From positions 1-64,000 of the forward strand of contig JAEOTZ010000070.1 of assembly GCA_016839585.1 (NCBI GenBank): DNA of 64,000 bases. The letters run 5' to 3'. Of this stretch, positions 50,836-53,808 are shown piece after piece. The position numbers and the translations under genes were made by a program. This DNA is from Promethearchaeota archaeon (lineage in GTDB: Archaea > Asgardarchaeota > Lokiarchaeia > Sigyniarchaeales > SOKP01). The notes under the pieces were generated by a model. The model worked only from the letters and a program-made list of their open reading frames with translations, ran no database searches and was not told where the DNA came from. Numbering within the stretch: the first letter of the stretch is position 1; every line of letters begins with the position of its first letter.

Positions 50836-52859
50836 CGATTAATATATTGTACTCTAAATGAGCTCAATTTACCATTCTTTATAATAATCTCTCGATATGC
50901 TCCTGCTGTTTTAGGATTTTTATATCCACCTAATCCTAAAGCAGGAGTTTGAACTATATAAGGTTTATTTTTCTCAATCATTTCTGACGTTGTTAGCATC
51001 TCTGAATAATTATCATAAAAAATAGCTGCTGGATTTTCAATTTTTTTTAATTTAAAAGGAGGGGCGTCATATACATAGGATTTTTCCTTTGGTTCTTCTA
51101 ATCGGAATTCTCGTAATGTATGTGTATGACCTGATAGAGTCAATATACAATAATCTTTACAAAACTTAATGAGTTTCTCCCAATTTGATGATATACATCC
51201 ATATTTTACATTAAATGAGTTATCTATTCTTGCCATTGAGAGCGGTTTTCCCAACTTTTTAAGGAAAGACTCCTTAAAATCCTCAAGCTTCCATTTAAGA
51301 ATTTTGCTACCTTTTTTTCCAAATAGTTGTAAACTATAATGTTTAGTCCCTGTATTTATTGGTGGTCCATGTAAAAAGAGGAAATTGTTAGTTTTTTCAT
51401 TCATTTTGTGATTAATCAAGTTCTCTAAATATTTTATTTGCTTACTAGAAAGACCTGTTACTGATGGATGGCCAGTTAATAAATCTCTTATATTTTTAAA
51501 TGAATCTGCTCCACTATTTAAAAAAATAAACATATTATTCCCCAACATAAAATAAAAATCATTAAATGGATTAATTTCTGATGAATATGCCTTTAACGCA
51601 AAAGGAGATTTTGTTAATGCTGATATGGGGGATGCTGAAAACATTTCATTTAAAGCAATAGCTTCTGCAGCATTTAAACCAATTTTCTTATACATTTCTG
51701 CCCATGTTAAATCATAAGGATAGGGTCGATAATCATGATTACCTACAGTAGTAATGATAGGACAAAGTAATTCTTCACCTTTTTTTACTCCTTTTTGGTT
51801 TTTTTTAGGTATCACATTTAATATTATATTTTTGAAGATCTGCCAATTAGTTTCTTCATATTTAAATTCATTAAGATTTTTAATTTTTTTCGACAATCTG
51901 CTTAAAATTGTATAATCAACAAGATCTCCAGTTAGCACAATAAAGTCTATTTCATTTTTAAGAACCTTTCTATTCATCAATTTAATAAATTTCCTAAATT
52001 GATTGTTTGGGTTAATTAAGCGTTTTCTCAGGGGGATCGTAATTTCTGATAGAGATTTCTCCTTTTGCTTTAGTTTTTTAATCTTTAGTTTTTTCATTGC
52101 TTGCTTTAAAAAATCCTCTACATTTGTTTTAATAGATGATTCAGTCCATTTTTTAATGATTTTATAGATTCGATCGTTTCTTTCTGCTAAATGCAAATCT
52201 GTTGCATGGATAAAAGTGAAATTCTTCCAATCTTGCTTAGATACGACAAGAGAATGATAATTTATTCGATTTTTTGACAAAATTAAATCAAACATAACGA
52301 AATTCCTTTCCTTTAAAAAGTTCCTAATTTCCTTGCTAAGTTTAAATTCTATTCGCACTCTATAGAATTTTTCCAAGTTTGAAAAAACTTGATACTTTAT
52401 TAAATAATCCTGAGGACTAAGACTTTCTAAATAAGAAATATTATTAATTGATATTGTAGATACTATTTTTGCATCTATAATCTTTGGATAAATTGAATTT
52501 CCTCTATAGGCTTTAATCTTTAATTTCTTTAATTTATAATCGACATCGTCGGACTTAAAATCTTGTACACTTTCATCCAATGTATATTTTTTTGCAAAAA
52601 ACTTCATTCTTTTCTTTTTCTTTTTCTTCTTGAAAACCTTTCTTAATTTCCATTTATAATCAAATATTGGGACGAATTGTATATTATCTCCAATAATTTT
52701 CTCAAATTCTTGTTTATCTACTATATTACTTATAAATAATAGCTCAGTTTGGTGAATTTTCGTTTTTAATTTAGGATCAATGCTTAAAAAAGTTGGGTGC
52801 CCCAAATTTGGATTAATGATTAATGATTTTGGTGTTTCTAAAGATTTTTGAGTAATCAA
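50832..52859 (-). CDS. Calcineurin-like metallophosphoesterase
   Basis: TDLH, TGDLVD, GNHD, LHGP, GHTH. Confidence 0.88.
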   Translation of the reverse strand: MITQKSLETPKSLIINPNLGHPTFLSIDPKLKTKIHQTELLFISNIVDKQEFEKIIGDNIQFVPIFDYKWKLRKVFKKKKKKKRMKFFAKKYTLDESVQDFKSDDVDYKLKKLKIKAYRGNSIYPKIIDAKIVSTISINNISYLESLSPQDYLIKYQVFSNLEKFYRVRIEFKLSKEIRNFLKERNFVMFDLILSKNRINYHSLVVSKQDWKNFTFIHATDLHLAERNDRIYKIIKKWTESSIKTNVEDFLKQAMKKLKIKKLKQKEKSLSEITIPLRKRLINPNNQFRKFIKLMNRKVLKNEIDFIVLTGDLVDYTILSRLSKKIKNLNEFKYEETNWQIFKNIILNVIPKKNQKGVKKGEELLCPIITTVGNHDYRPYPYDLTWAEMYKKIGLNAAEAIALNEMFSASPISALTKSPFALKAYSSEINPFNDFYFMLGNNMFIFLNSGADSFKNIRDLLTGHPSVTGLSSKQIKYLENLINHKMNEKTNNFLFLHGPPINTGTKHYSLQLFGKKGSKILKWKLEDFKESFLKKLGKPLSMARIDNSFNVKYGCISSNWEKLIKFCKDYCILTLSGHTHTLREFRLEEPKEKSYVYDAPPFKLKKIENPAAIFYDNYSEMLTTSEMIEKNKPYIVQTPALGLGGYKNPKTAGAYREIIIKNGKLSSFRVQYINR

Positions 52860-53030
52860 CTTCTACAAATCTAGGGTATAAATTTTATTTAAATTATTAA
52901 ATATGTCCTAATAAATAATGATTAACTTTAATATAGTTATTTATTATAATATTTCCAGAAATTTTCATTTAAATTTATAATGAGAAGGAAATGTAAACAA
53001 CAAACGATTAAAAATCGAAGGAACTCTTAT

Positions 53031-53330
53031 TTATTTACCTTCTATATTAGCTAAATTCACAAATATCACATTATCTCCACGTACAACAATGGATCCTAAG
53101 TTTTCATGCTCCTCCCTTATGTTACCATCCTCATCTTGATATTCAAAAATCTGGCTAGTTTCTTCAAGGTAAAGATTCAGGTGTTCATCGAAACCTTCGA
53201 GTTTAGGGTGATCCAGAAAACTGGTAAATCATCTCCCTCTGAACAACCTATTTCGCTTTACCTTTATTAGAATTATTTGATTTATAGAATCTTTTAAATA
53301 ATCGATTGGTCTATTAGATCTTCTTTCCAT
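53031..53330 (-). CDS. Sm/Lsm protein (SmAP), two exons: 53330-53233 and 53202-53031; 89 aa after splicing
   Basis: MERRSNRPIDYLKDSINQIILIKVKRNRLFRG|RLEGFDEHLNLYLEE...LGSIVVRGDNVIFV (Sm1 and Sm2 motifs); missed by the ORF track because of an intronic TGA. Confidence 0.92.
53203..53232 (-). other. 30-nt bulge-helix-bulge mRNA intron
   Basis: AGGG/CCCU 4-bp helix with AGA and AAA 3-nt bulges; inner UGAU/AUCA and CCAG-UUUU-CUGG; removal deletes the in-frame UGA. Confidence 0.85.
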
Positions 53331-53465
53331 CTTTTAAAAACTCGATAAAACAATTATTAATGAAAAAACTATTTATAATTACAATTAAATTAAAACTAAT
53401 TAAAACCTTTTGATTATTTTTATATTCTTATACATTAAAATGTAATCAAAAAATATCTGATAATA

Positions 53466-53618
53466 TTGAATGAAGAAAATAATAAGAAAAAAATAGTAAC
53501 ATGTTGCGTAATGAATTGTCAAGCAGAAGTACTAATTGAAAAAGCAATTATAATCGAAGGAAAATGTTTTTGTCCCTCTTGTGGTACGGCCTATTATCGA
53601 AGTATTCTAAATTTATAA
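53466..53618 (+). CDS. 50-aa zinc-finger microprotein
   Basis: TTG start; MNEENNKKKIVTCCVMNCQAEV...IEGKCFCPSCG; below the ORF-track cutoff. Confidence 0.65.
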   Translation: MNEENNKKKIVTCCVMNCQAEVLIEKAIIIEGKCFCPSCGTAYYRSILNL

Positions 53619-53700
53619 TTTCATTCTAGATTTAAAATATTAATCGTTTAAGTTTTTATTCAATAATACTTTTATTAGATAATAGAGTACCGCATTTTTT

Positions 53701-53808
53701 AGGCCCGTGGCCCAGACTGGATAAGGCGGCAGCCTCCTAAGCTGAAGATCGGGGGTTCAATGAGATTCGCCTTGGGCGAATTCCGAACAAATCCCCCCGG
53801 GCCTGCCA
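53701..53808 (+). tRNA. tRNA-Arg(CCT) with 30-nt BHB intron in the T-loop (53761-53790, position 58/59); CCA encoded
   Basis: AGGCCCG/CGGGCCT acceptor stem, CT-CCT-AA anticodon loop, GGGGG/CCCCC T-stem; GUUC/GAAC helix with AAU and AAA bulges. Confidence 0.93.

What the first reader, a model, noticed from the sequence alone, without database searches (positions are those of the whole stretch)
53031..53330. Bulge-helix-bulge mRNA intron inside an Asgard Sm/Lsm gene
Seen: the Sm gene reads ...LFRG-R*FTSFLDHPK-LEGFDEHLNL, a 30-nt in-frame insertion with a UGA in the middle of the Sm1 motif. The RNA folds into a canonical BHB: central helix AGGG(53238-53235)/CCCU(53208-53205), 3-nt bulges AGA and AAA each 3' of the helix, and flanking helices. 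Cutting after the second nucleotide of each bulge (the EndA rule) removes exactly 53203-53232 and gives LFRGRLEGFDEHLNL. Established: BHB introns are excised by the tRNA splicing endonuclease, and the best-known archaeal mRNA case is crenarchaeal cbf5. Inference: EndA/RtcB-type splicing gates expression of the archaeal homologue of the spliceosomal Sm core in a lineage close to eukaryotes. I am not aware of this being described, and gene callers would miss the gene.
Basis: partly seen in the sequence, partly recalled or inferred. Interest (0 to 1): 0.92.

Follow-up and report, generated by a model that had tools for sequence, protein, structure and literature searches.

The report
tRNA-type mini-intron in Asgard Sm gene
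An Sm (LSm-family) RNA-binding protein gene of an uncultured Loki-type Asgard archaeon is split by a 30-base insert shaped like a tRNA intron. Comparison with about 80 related gene copies indicates that the tRNA-splicing enzymes cut it out of the mRNA, which published work shows inside an archaeal coding sequence only for cbf5.

Summary
The LSM-domain gene on the minus strand (53330-53031) carries a 30-nt insert (53232-53203) with an in-frame UGA. The insert and its flanks form a 4-bp helix, AGGG/CCCU, between two 3-nt bulges. Cutting after the second bulge base removes exactly what 45 congeneric species lack.

The insert is not an artefact. The same-site intron occurs in nine alleles from independent assemblies, with lengths 29, 30, 32, 32, 33, 33, 33, 34 and 34 nt. 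Five of these lengths break the frame unless removed. All exons are intact and under strong purifying selection (pN/pS 0.07-0.14). The helix-bulge core is kept while the loop varies. The exon codons that pair with the intron are AGAGGG in 7/7 intron-bearing copies and 9/70 intronless copies.

The genome encodes EndA alpha and beta subunits and RtcB. A tRNA-Arg 370 nt away has a 30-nt intron of the same build.

No RNA data were available, so splicing itself is inferred (confidence 0.85). The "gates Sm expression" idea is not supported: the intron is sporadic, in about 9% of copies, and a 96%-identical sister copy lacks it. This scan has already reported many such mini-introns on other DNA, several of them in this genome.

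The parts
53233..53330 (-). Sm/LSM gene, exon 1 (ATG at 53330-53328; 32 codons plus the first two bases, AG, of the split codon)
   Evidence: Pfam LSM profile 2-24; 84-100% identical to the N-termini of congeneric orthologues.
53203..53232 (-). 30-nt BHB mini-intron (begins A-UGA-UUU..., ends ...CCCUAA)
   Evidence: Absent from 45 congeneric species and 33 metagenome copies at exactly this place. Single copy in the genome. Homologous same-site introns of 29-34 nt in L053 and L198-L202 and in runs X5, X6 and X12.
53031..53202 (-). Sm/LSM gene, exon 2 (last base of the split codon, 56 codons, stop TAA at 53033-53031)
   Evidence: Pfam LSM profile 25-65, E = 3.5e-9.
53229..53231 (-). In-frame UGA directly after the 5' splice site; would end translation of unspliced mRNA after 33 residues
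   Evidence: The UGA is kept in all nine alleles.
53235..53238 (-). Central helix, 5' strand AGGG (exon-encoded, from the Arg-Gly codons AGA GGG)
   Evidence: 100% paired in 8 alleles. AGAGGG in 7/7 intron-bearing versus 9/70 intronless copies.
53205..53208 (-). Central helix, 3' strand CCCU (intron-encoded; CUCU in three alleles, which keeps a G-U pair)
53232..53234 (-). 5' bulge AGA; predicted cut between 53233 and 53232
   Evidence: The cut rule (between the 2nd and 3rd bulge residue) is as stated for cbf5 in PMC2738675. The middle base varies (G, U or A) among alleles and sets the junction codon to Arg, Ile or Lys.
53202..53204 (-). 3' bulge AAA; predicted cut between 53203 and 53202
   Evidence: AAA or AUA among alleles.
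53209..53231 (-). Intron hairpin: inner helix UGAU (53231-53228) with AUCA (53212-53209), then CCAG/CUGG with loop UUUU
   Evidence: The first two inner pairs are invariant. Loop length and sequence vary among alleles.
53200..53201 (-). Outer helix 3' strand CU (start of the Leu codon), pairing with AG at 53240-53239
   Evidence: invariant in 8 alleles. Leu codon is CUN in 7/7 intron-bearing versus 40/70 intronless copies. Only 2 contiguous pairs, not formed in the minimum-free-energy fold.
53370..53378 (-). TTATAAATA, a putative TATA box about 40 nt upstream of the ATG
   Evidence: Read from the sequence; conserved in the aligned congeneric orthologues. Promoter function is inferred.
53701..53808 (+). 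Neighbouring tRNA-Arg(CCU) gene with a 30-nt non-canonical T-loop intron (53761-53790) of the same geometry: helix GUUC/GAAC, bulges AAU and AAA
   Evidence: ARAGORN and the Rfam gathering threshold miss it unspliced (16.9 bits). After removing 53761-53790 by the same cut rule, ARAGORN calls a complete tRNA-Arg(CCU).

Best explanation
The 30 nt at 53232-53203 are a tRNA-type (bulge-helix-bulge) intron inside the coding sequence of an Sm-like archaeal protein gene of a Loki-type Asgard (Promethearchaeota) archaeon.

Proposed mechanism, with each step marked as shown or inferred:
1. The gene is transcribed from its conserved TATA-like promoter (inferred).
2. In the pre-mRNA, the exon bases AGGG pair with the intron bases CCCU. 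This gives a 4-bp helix flanked by two 3-nt bulges, an intron hairpin on one side and a short exon-exon helix on the other (shown in sequence, and kept in all nine alleles).
3. The heterotetrameric (alpha-beta)2 splicing endonuclease EndA cuts after the second base of each bulge (inferred from the rule established for cbf5 and tRNA introns).
4. RtcB joins the exons (inferred).
5. The product is AGA GGG AG|A CUC GAA, reading FRGRLEGFDEHLNL, and an 89-residue Sm protein with an intact Sm1 motif (shown by homology).
6. Unspliced mRNA would end at the UGA after 33 residues.

The intron is not a conserved regulatory device. It is a sporadic, heritable element found in a minority of lineages of this genus. 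Its loop is free to vary in length and sequence, while the exon codons that pair with it are held fixed.
For: 1. Exact boundaries. 45 congeneric species, 47 species-representative loci and 32 of the 33 metagenome copies that could be scored have exon 1 and exon 2 directly adjacent. The Pfam LSM profile runs 2-24 then 25-65 across the junction. PDB SmAP1 aligns with a 10-residue gap at the insert.

2. The helix-bulge register matches those boundaries. The background frequency of such a motif in one fixed register is 4e-5 to 7e-4.

3. It is real DNA. Contigs from three further studies (X5, X6, X12) hold it, and six independent assemblies carry a homologous intron at the same site (L053, L198-L202).

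4. The nine alleles measure 29, 30, 32, 32, 33, 33, 33, 34 and 34 nt. Five break the frame unless removed. Every spliced CDS is intact.

5. Purifying selection acts among intron-bearing alleles: pN/pS is 0.07-0.14 with synonymous sites near saturation (pS 0.72-0.87). dN/dS between the window and its intronless sister is 0.04.

6. The central helix is 100% paired in 8 alleles, with G-C to G-U changes only. The first two inner pairs and both outer pairs are invariant. Variation sits in the loop and in the middle base of the bulges.

7. Exon synonymous sites are coupled to intron presence. AGAGGG occurs in 7/7 intron-bearing versus 9/70 intronless copies (Fisher 4.8e-6). The Gly third base is G in 7/7 versus 16/70. 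The Leu codon is CUN in 7/7 versus 40/70.

8. The machinery is present. There are two EndA paralogues with both Pfam endonuclease domains; by my reading of the two sequences, one keeps the conserved His and the other does not. One RtcB is present. Asgard EndA is reported as the broad-specificity (alpha-beta)2 type with the L1 loop (PMC5829648).

9. There is a positive control in the window: tRNA-Arg(CCU) at 53701-53808 becomes detectable only after a 30-nt intron of the same geometry is removed.

10. Other conserved genes of this genome carry about 30-nt inserts with in-frame stops: RNase HII within the DEAGR|GP motif, PFK, and a ubiquitin-conjugating (E2) gene.
Against: There is no RNA evidence. 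No RNA run holding this DNA was listed, so neither the spliced junction nor the excised intron has been seen.

There is no compensatory (two-sided) base-pair change in any helix. The 5' strand of the central helix is also protein-coding, so part of its conservation is explained by the Arg-Gly codons.

The outer helix has only two contiguous pairs and is not formed in the minimum-free-energy fold, and the fold energy is ordinary (z = -0.97).

The codon-coupling test counts related sequences. Only about 3-5 independent lineages are involved, so its p-values overstate the evidence.

The X5 and X12 alleles were rebuilt from difference tables of single contigs. The 34-nt class is, however, independently seen in L198.

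Three other LSM-domain genes exist in the genome, so loss of this one might be tolerated.
Confidence: 0.85

Rival explanations
1. Regulated switch. The intron is spliced, and the splicing is controlled so that it gates how much Sm protein is made. One possible route is Sm protein binding the U-rich intron loop.
For: The UGA directly after the 5' splice site is kept in all alleles, so unspliced mRNA is silent. Some alleles have U-rich loops: UUUU in the window and L053, AAUUUUUGG in L200. These resemble the U-rich sites that Sm proteins bind (general knowledge, not tested). A negative regulatory role was proposed for the cbf5 intron (PMC2738675).
Against: 45 congeneric species and a 96%-identical sister copy do without the intron. 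It is in about 9% of sampled copies and scattered on the tree. Loop sequence is not conserved; L198, X5 and X12 have no U tract. Unrelated genes in the same genome have similar inserts, which points to a general, non-specific phenomenon.
Confidence: 0.1
2. Dead gene. The insert is a disabling insertion that is not removed, and the other LSM paralogues cover the function.
For: An in-frame UGA sits in the Sm1 motif. Three other LSM-domain genes are intact in the genome. No RNA evidence of splicing exists.
Against: Seven DNA-verified interrupted alleles, diverged to synonymous saturation, all keep intact exons with pN/pS 0.07-0.14. Changes in the insert are confined to the loop, while the helix-bulge core and the exon codons that pair with it are held. 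A random 30-nt insertion gives this geometry in this register at 4e-5 to 7e-4.
Confidence: 0.05
3. Translational bypass or recoding. The ribosome hops over the insert (as in phage T4 gene 60) or reads UGA as an amino acid, without RNA splicing.
For: A stop codon directly follows the last exon-1 codon, followed by a hairpin, which is reminiscent of gene 60. Hopping would also tolerate inserts that are not multiples of three.
Against: The take-off and landing codons do not match (AGA versus AAA in the window). Reading UGA through cannot work for the 29-, 32- and 34-nt alleles, and it would put 10 residues into the middle of the Sm1 motif, where SmAP1 has none. Hopping does not explain the 4-bp helix with two 3-nt bulges or the coupled exon codons.
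Confidence: 0.04
4. Assembly or sequencing artefact.
For: The window comes from a metagenome-assembled genome. The species representatives of the genus lack the insert.
Against: The source run's contig matches the window over the whole 1001 nt laid, at depth about 94. Contigs from three other studies span the insert. Six other public assemblies (NCBI, ENA, Logan, JGI) carry homologous same-site inserts.
Confidence: 0.01

Closest known systems
cbf5 pre-mRNA intron of Crenarchaeota (Aeropyrum, Sulfolobales, Desulfurococcales; Watanabe 2002, Yokobori 2009, PMC2738675)
   Same: Both are short BHB-type introns inside a protein-coding sequence. Both are cut between the 2nd and 3rd bulge residues by a hetero-oligomeric EndA and must be removed to give the functional protein. 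Both are patchily distributed, with inferred gain and loss.
   Different: The phylum (Asgard) and the gene (Sm/LSM) differ. Here the motif is close to the strict form, with a 4-bp helix and two 3-nt bulges, whereas the cbf5 motifs are described as unconventional or relaxed. cbf5 splicing was shown by cDNA and in vitro cleavage; here it is inferred. This intron is polymorphic at strain level and has nine length alleles.
BHB intron in the 5' UTR of Haloferax volcanii HVO_1309 (PMC7714728)
   Same: It is an mRNA substrate of the archaeal splicing endonuclease. The excised intron was found as a circle and the cleavage was reproduced in vitro.
   Different: That intron lies in the untranslated leader (46 nt) and does not interrupt a reading frame.
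Non-canonical tRNA introns of Asgard archaea (PMC11291895; bioRxiv 10.64898/2026.10.13.758758; PMC5829648)
   Same: The machinery and size class are the same. Gains are frequent and lineage-specific, with no known route of arrival. The window's own tRNA-Arg has a 30-nt intron with the same geometry.
   Different: The host RNA is a messenger. The exon strand of the helix therefore has to satisfy the protein code as well, which is seen here as fixed synonymous codons.
HAC1/XBP1 unconventional mRNA splicing in eukaryotes (IRE1 cut, tRNA-ligase/RtcB join)
   Same: Both are spliceosome-independent excision of a short intron from an mRNA by an endonuclease and a tRNA-type ligase (mentioned in PMC4090602).
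   Different: The endonuclease (IRE1) and its stem-loop recognition differ, and that splicing is stress-regulated. No regulation is shown here.

Membership tests
Archaeal bulge-helix-bulge (BHB) intron | Two 3-nt bulges on opposite strands, each 3' of its strand of a 4-bp central helix | tested here: met
   AGGG-AGA ... CCCU-AAA at 53238-53232 and 53208-53202. The same register is kept in all nine alleles, and the central helix is 100% paired in the eight that were aligned and counted.
Archaeal bulge-helix-bulge (BHB) intron | Flanking helices on both sides (h and h') | tested here: inconclusive
   The inner helix has 4-7 pairs in the window and 2-7 among alleles. The outer helix has only 2 contiguous pairs (AG/CU), which are invariant but are not formed in the minimum-free-energy fold. 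Broad-specificity (alpha-beta)2 EndA is reported to accept relaxed motifs (PMC5829648).
Archaeal bulge-helix-bulge (BHB) intron | Cuts between the 2nd and 3rd bulge bases give the correct mature RNA | tested here: met
   Predicted excision of 53232-53203 equals the insert defined by intronless orthologues, Pfam and PDB alignments. The rule is as stated in PMC2738675.
Archaeal bulge-helix-bulge (BHB) intron | Host encodes the splicing endonuclease and an RNA ligase | tested here: met
   EndA alpha-like (contig C2, 201 aa) and beta-like (contig C39, 200 aa) ORFs and RtcB (contig C7).
Archaeal bulge-helix-bulge (BHB) intron | Spliced RNA and excised (circular) intron observed | not testable with these tools
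   No RNA run holding this DNA was listed. No protein equal to the spliced product is on record.
Archaeal bulge-helix-bulge (BHB) intron | Base pairs supported by compensatory changes | tested here: not met
   There are 0 two-sided changes in 12 pairs over 8 alleles; only G-C to G-U and U-A to U-G changes occur. Indirect support comes from exon codon choice coupled to intron presence.
Sm/LSM protein family (Pfam PF01423) | Match to the LSM profile above the curated cut-off, covering the Sm1 and Sm2 motifs | tested here: met
   46.8 bits against a cut-off of 23.4 over profile positions 2-65. The best solved relatives are archaeal SmAP1 heptamers.
Programmed translational bypass (T4 gene 60 type) | Matching take-off and landing codons flanking the gap | tested here: not met
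   Take-off codon AGA versus AAA before the resumed frame.
UGA recoding (selenocysteine or read-through) | The insert stays in frame, so that reading UGA gives a full protein | tested here: not met
   Alleles of 29, 32, 32, 34 and 34 nt shift the frame.

The most novel reading that the evidence does not exclude
The Sm intron is one heritable intron family that has sat at a single site across a Lokiarchaeial genus. On this reading it is lost, or gained, at the DNA level by short-patch recombination between co-occurring relatives.

The evidence is a trio of copies. The window/L198 copy has the intron; L038 and L118 do not. The three are 95-98% identical outside a stretch of about 100-150 nt centred on the intron site, and only 74-80% identical inside it. 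Other equally close pairs show no such dip.

The 5' half of the intron (AUGAUUU) is invariant between lineages whose synonymous sites are saturated.

If this is right, presence/absence pairs such as window versus L038 would show how tRNA-type introns arrive in and leave Asgard genes. A recent preprint on Asgard tRNA introns calls that question open.
Probability: 0.35. Interest if true: 0.75.

Novelty: new member of a known kind. Interest (0 to 1): 0.62.

Why it matters
In the papers I could search, a BHB intron inside an archaeal coding sequence is documented only for cbf5 of Crenarchaeota, with one further intron in a Haloferax 5' UTR. An Sm gene in the archaeal group closest to eukaryotes adds a well-supported case. 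Together with the other interrupted genes in this genome, it suggests that the tRNA-splicing enzymes routinely process messenger RNAs in these organisms.

There are practical consequences. Gene callers mis-annotate such genes; public records hold chimaeric 60-74-residue "hypothetical proteins" that start inside the intron. Completeness and pseudogene counts for Asgard genomes are therefore biased.

This locus is useful beyond one more example. It offers nine natural length alleles, intron-bearing and intronless copies at 96% identity, and exon codons visibly constrained by the intron. That makes it a compact system for testing EndA substrate rules and the gain and loss of such introns.

That the interrupted gene is the homologue of the spliceosomal Sm core is a curiosity. 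There is no evidence of a mechanistic link.

Tried and rejected
- RNA evidence. No RNA holder was listed for window 52700-53700, so expression and splicing could not be examined.
- Exact-pattern scans for the intron found nothing in JGI metagenome contigs, GTDB genome contigs or viral contigs. The own genome may be left out of these scans.
- Look-up of the 33-residue exon-1 ORF: not on record.
- Copies or donors in the own genome. blastn-short found no match longer than 14 nt, so the insert is not a repeat or a copy of a tRNA intron in this genome.
- Genome-wide scan for helix-bulge motifs whose removal joins two open frames. It gave 833 sites against 779 for a mirror-topology control, and 93 against 94 distinct sites at the strictest setting. 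There is no excess. The test is swamped by gene junctions and short chance ORFs, so it says nothing either way about how many mRNA introns the genome has.
- Comparison with the tRNA introns that ARAGORN predicts in the genome (18 tRNAs, 11 with introns). The predicted boundaries did not map cleanly onto strict motifs. This is probably because the genes hold several non-canonical introns. I dropped this line in favour of the hand-checked tRNA-Arg in the window.
- Fold energy is not distinctive (z = -0.97).
- Covariation: no two-sided changes.
- Donor of the divergent patch: no sampled allele is close to the window's patch (best 79.5%), so the direction of any recombination (gain or loss) stays open.
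- The RNase HII insert noted earlier in this genome is confirmed as a 30-nt in-frame insert with a stop. Its central helix has a G-G mismatch, so it did not pass my strict motif filter.
Full report
WHAT IS THERE

On the minus strand, 53330-53031 reads as a 100-codon frame: MERRS...LFRGR, then UGA, then FTSFLDHPK, then LEGFDEHLNL...EGK and a stop.

Pfam LSM (PF01423) matches the read-through at 46.8 bits against a cut-off of 23.4. Taken separately, the piece before the UGA matches profile positions 2-24 and the piece from LEGFD onward matches positions 25-65. The two pieces are therefore contiguous in the family model, and ten codons in between belong to nothing. Solved archaeal SmAP1 structures (1loj, 1jbm, 1jri) align along the whole protein with a 10-residue gap exactly there.

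- AGGG (53238-53235) pairs with CCCU (53208-53205).
- Each strand of that helix is followed on its 3' side by a 3-nt bulge: AGA at 53234-53232 and AAA at 53204-53202.
- Inside lies UGAU/AUCA, extendable to 7 pairs with G-U, or alternatively followed by CCAG-UUUU-CUGG.
- Outside lies AG/CU, then a C-C mismatch, then two more pairs.

Cutting after the second base of each bulge is the rule stated for cbf5 in PMC2738675. It removes 53232-53203 and gives AGA GGG AG|A CUC GAA, reading FRGRLEGF.

WHO IT IS

Record titles of the closest genomic relatives are Promethearchaeota/Promethearchaeia (Loki-type Asgard) metagenome-assembled genomes. The window is contig C59 of a 3.45-Mb genome that is 99% complete, with G+C of about 30%.

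IS THE INSERT REAL, AND IS IT AN INSERT?

The evidence that relatives lack it:
- In a search of 54 genomes of the genus, 45 other species have the orthologue with an open frame of 82-151 residues. Only this genome's frame is cut, at 65.
- Direct alignment of 21 of these, of 47 species-representative loci, and of the 33 JGI metagenome copies that could be scored shows exon 1 and exon 2 adjacent everywhere, with one exception.
- The 30 nt occur once in the genome and have no partial copy longer than 14 nt.

The evidence that it is real DNA: the source run's contig matches the window over the whole 1001 nt laid, at depth about 94. Contigs from three other studies of marine sediment and cold seeps span the insert.

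MORE ALLELES

The one exception among the JGI contigs, L053, has a 33-nt insert at the same site with a clearly related sequence.

A protein search with exon 2 turned up odd 60-74-residue "proteins" that begin MIYQI..., MVCHP..., or MGCSEGDDLPVE... and then run into LGGFDEHLNL. These are gene-caller products that start inside or before the intron. Their contigs all carry the same-site intron:
- L198, from NCBI GCA_023133715.1
- L199, from ENA
- L200 and L201, from Logan
- L202, from ENA

With the variants rebuilt from runs X5 and X12, the lengths are 29, 30, 32, 32, 33, 33, 33, 34 and 34 nt. Five of the nine are not multiples of three. In those, exon 2 lies in another frame than exon 1, and only exact removal restores the protein. 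The 34-nt class is seen twice independently, in L198 and X12.

Every spliced CDS translates into an intact Sm protein.

SELECTION

Among the seven DNA-verified intron-bearing alleles, synonymous sites are near saturation (pS 0.72-0.87 between lineages), while pN is 0.06-0.11, giving an uncorrected pN/pS of 0.07-0.14. Between the window and its intronless sister L038, dN/dS is 0.04. A gene that was dead because of the insert would not look like this.

STRUCTURE ACROSS ALLELES

In an alignment of eight alleles:
- The central helix is paired in 100% of cells, with G-C replaced by G-U in three alleles.
- Both outer pairs and the first two inner pairs never vary.
- All indels and most substitutions lie in the loop.
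- The middle base of each bulge varies. In the 5' bulge this base decides whether the junction codon is Arg, Ile or Lys, the same residues seen in intronless relatives.

There is no two-sided compensatory change, so covariation in the strict sense is absent.

A different kind of coupling is present. The exon codons that supply the 5' strand are AGA GGG in 7/7 intron-bearing copies and in 9/70 intronless copies (Fisher 4.8e-6). The third base of the Gly codon is G in 7/7 versus 16/70. The Leu codon after the junction is CUN in 7/7 versus 40/70, never UUR. These counts are not phylogenetically independent; the tree suggests 3-5 independent lineages. They still fit a requirement that the exon pair with the intron.

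Chance was estimated on the genome. A helix-bulge motif in one fixed register at spacing 30 is found at 4e-5 of positions with strict criteria and 7e-4 with the loosest.

MACHINERY AND A LOCAL CONTROL

The genome has two roughly 200-residue proteins with both tRNA-intron-endonuclease domains. By my reading of the two sequences, one has the conserved His in the motif ...EHSPF... and the other lacks it. This fits the (alpha-beta)2 enzyme with broad specificity reported for Asgard archaea (PMC5829648). RtcB is present.

ARAGORN finds only 18 tRNA genes in this near-complete genome, 11 of them with introns. Published work reports that Asgard tRNA genes are heavily interrupted (PMC11291895; bioRxiv 10.64898/2026.10.13.758758).

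About 370 nt from the Sm gene, on the other strand, a G+C-rich stretch scores only 16.9 bits as a tRNA. Removing 53761-53790 by the same rule (helix GUUC/GAAC, bulges AAU and AAA) yields a complete tRNA-Arg(CCU) that ARAGORN then calls. This organism thus has non-canonical 30-nt introns of this build in a gene that must be functional.

DISTRIBUTION AND HISTORY

On a tree of 77 spliced CDS (246 nt, limited resolution), the seven intron-bearing rows need five changes of state, at least three of them forced by well-supported branches:
- The window groups with L198 (intron), and next with L038 (no intron).
- L053 groups with L145 and L143 (no intron).
- L201 groups with L202.
- L200 and L199 stand apart.

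Because the introns are plainly homologous (the 5' half AUGAUUU is invariant, and the 3' end reads CAC-C/U-CU-A), the pattern means either one old intron with many losses or exchange between lineages.

One observation bears on this:
- The window and L038 are 96.0% identical over 1203 nt, yet 18 of the 48 differences lie within 53151-53262, around the intron (Fisher 2e-10).
- Within the CDS, a 78-nt patch is 79.5% identical while the rest is 97.6% identical.
- L118, a third close and intronless copy, shows the same dip against both (74% versus 95-98%).
- Seven other equally close pairs show no dip.

So three nearly identical backgrounds carry three different versions of the 100-150 nt around the intron site. 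I read this as short-patch recombination at that site, for instance intron loss by conversion from foreign intronless alleles. The direction cannot be settled, because no sampled allele is close to any of the three patches.

WHAT IT IS NOT

- Artefact: excluded by the independent assemblies.
- UGA read-through or selenocysteine: excluded by the frame-breaking alleles, and by the position in the middle of the Sm1 motif.
- Gene-60-type ribosome hopping: would tolerate any length, but needs matching take-off and landing codons (here AGA versus AAA), and explains neither the helix-bulge geometry nor the coupled exon codons.
- A regulatory "gate" on Sm expression: cannot be excluded, but nothing supports it. 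Most species and a 96%-identical sister lack the intron, the loop is not conserved, and unrelated genes in this genome have similar inserts. RNase HII has a 30-nt insert with UAG inside DEAGR|GP, PFK has in-frame TAG and TAA, and an E2 gene is split across two frames.

RELATION TO EARLIER WORK

In print, as far as I could search:
- Splicing of an archaeal coding sequence by EndA is documented for cbf5 (PMC2738675).
- An intron in a 5' UTR is documented in Haloferax, in a paper stating that cbf5 was until then the only other mRNA case (PMC7714728).
- Asgard tRNA introns are described, but I found nothing on Asgard mRNA introns. Subscription journals are largely missing from that library.

Within this scan the class has been reported many times. 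There are notes on thioredoxin, uS3, a Rab GTPase, dnaG, RNase HII, pfk and E2 in this same genome, and on many other Asgard genomes. Two of those notes claim RNA-derived evidence of exact removal. I treated them as leads. I re-checked three, for RNase HII, pfk and E2, only to the extent of confirming the interruptions.

VERDICT

This is a genuine new member of a known kind: a BHB intron in an archaeal mRNA. It is well supported by comparative evidence and lacks only RNA proof (confidence 0.85).

Its particular value lies in three things: the nine natural length alleles, the near-identical intronless sister, and the visible constraint on exon codons. The link to the spliceosomal Sm core is incidental.

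Noticed in passing
window 53701-53808 (+): A tRNA-Arg(CCU) gene missed by ARAGORN and by Rfam at the gathering threshold. It has a 30-nt non-canonical intron in the T-loop (53761-53790) with helix GUUC/GAAC and bulges AAU and AAA. After removal, ARAGORN calls a complete tRNA.
   Followed up: yes
window 53151-53262, versus L038 and L118: Three gene copies that are 95-98% identical elsewhere (one with the intron, two without) differ at 20-26% of positions in the roughly 100-150 nt around the intron site. Other close pairs in the genus show no such dip. This may be a short-patch recombination hot spot tied to intron gain or loss.
   Followed up: partly
G000 contig C52:9077-9706 (-), contig C62:42490-43461 (-), contig C5:68003-68463 (-): RNase HII has a 30-nt insert with in-frame UAG inside the DEAGR|GP motif. 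PFK has in-frame TAG and TAA inside its Pfam match. A ubiquitin-conjugating (E2) gene is split into two frames. These look like further mini-introns. The RNase HII central helix has one mismatch.
   Followed up: partly
proteins P0001, P0024, P0090, P0100, P0118 (public records): Public gene calls for intron-bearing copies of this Sm gene are chimaeric. Translation starts at the AUG formed at the 5' splice site, or upstream in a wrong frame, and runs through the intron into exon 2. One (P0001) carries the name 'hypothetical protein'; the others carry no name.
   Followed up: yes
whole genome G000: ARAGORN finds only 18 tRNA genes (11 with introns) in a 99% complete genome. This suggests that most tRNA genes are hidden by several or non-canonical introns.
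   Followed up: partly
L200:349-381: The loop of this 33-nt allele contains AAUUUUUGG, which reads like the classical Sm-site consensus. Other alleles have UUUU loops or no U tract at all. Probably chance in an A+T-rich genome.
   Followed up: no
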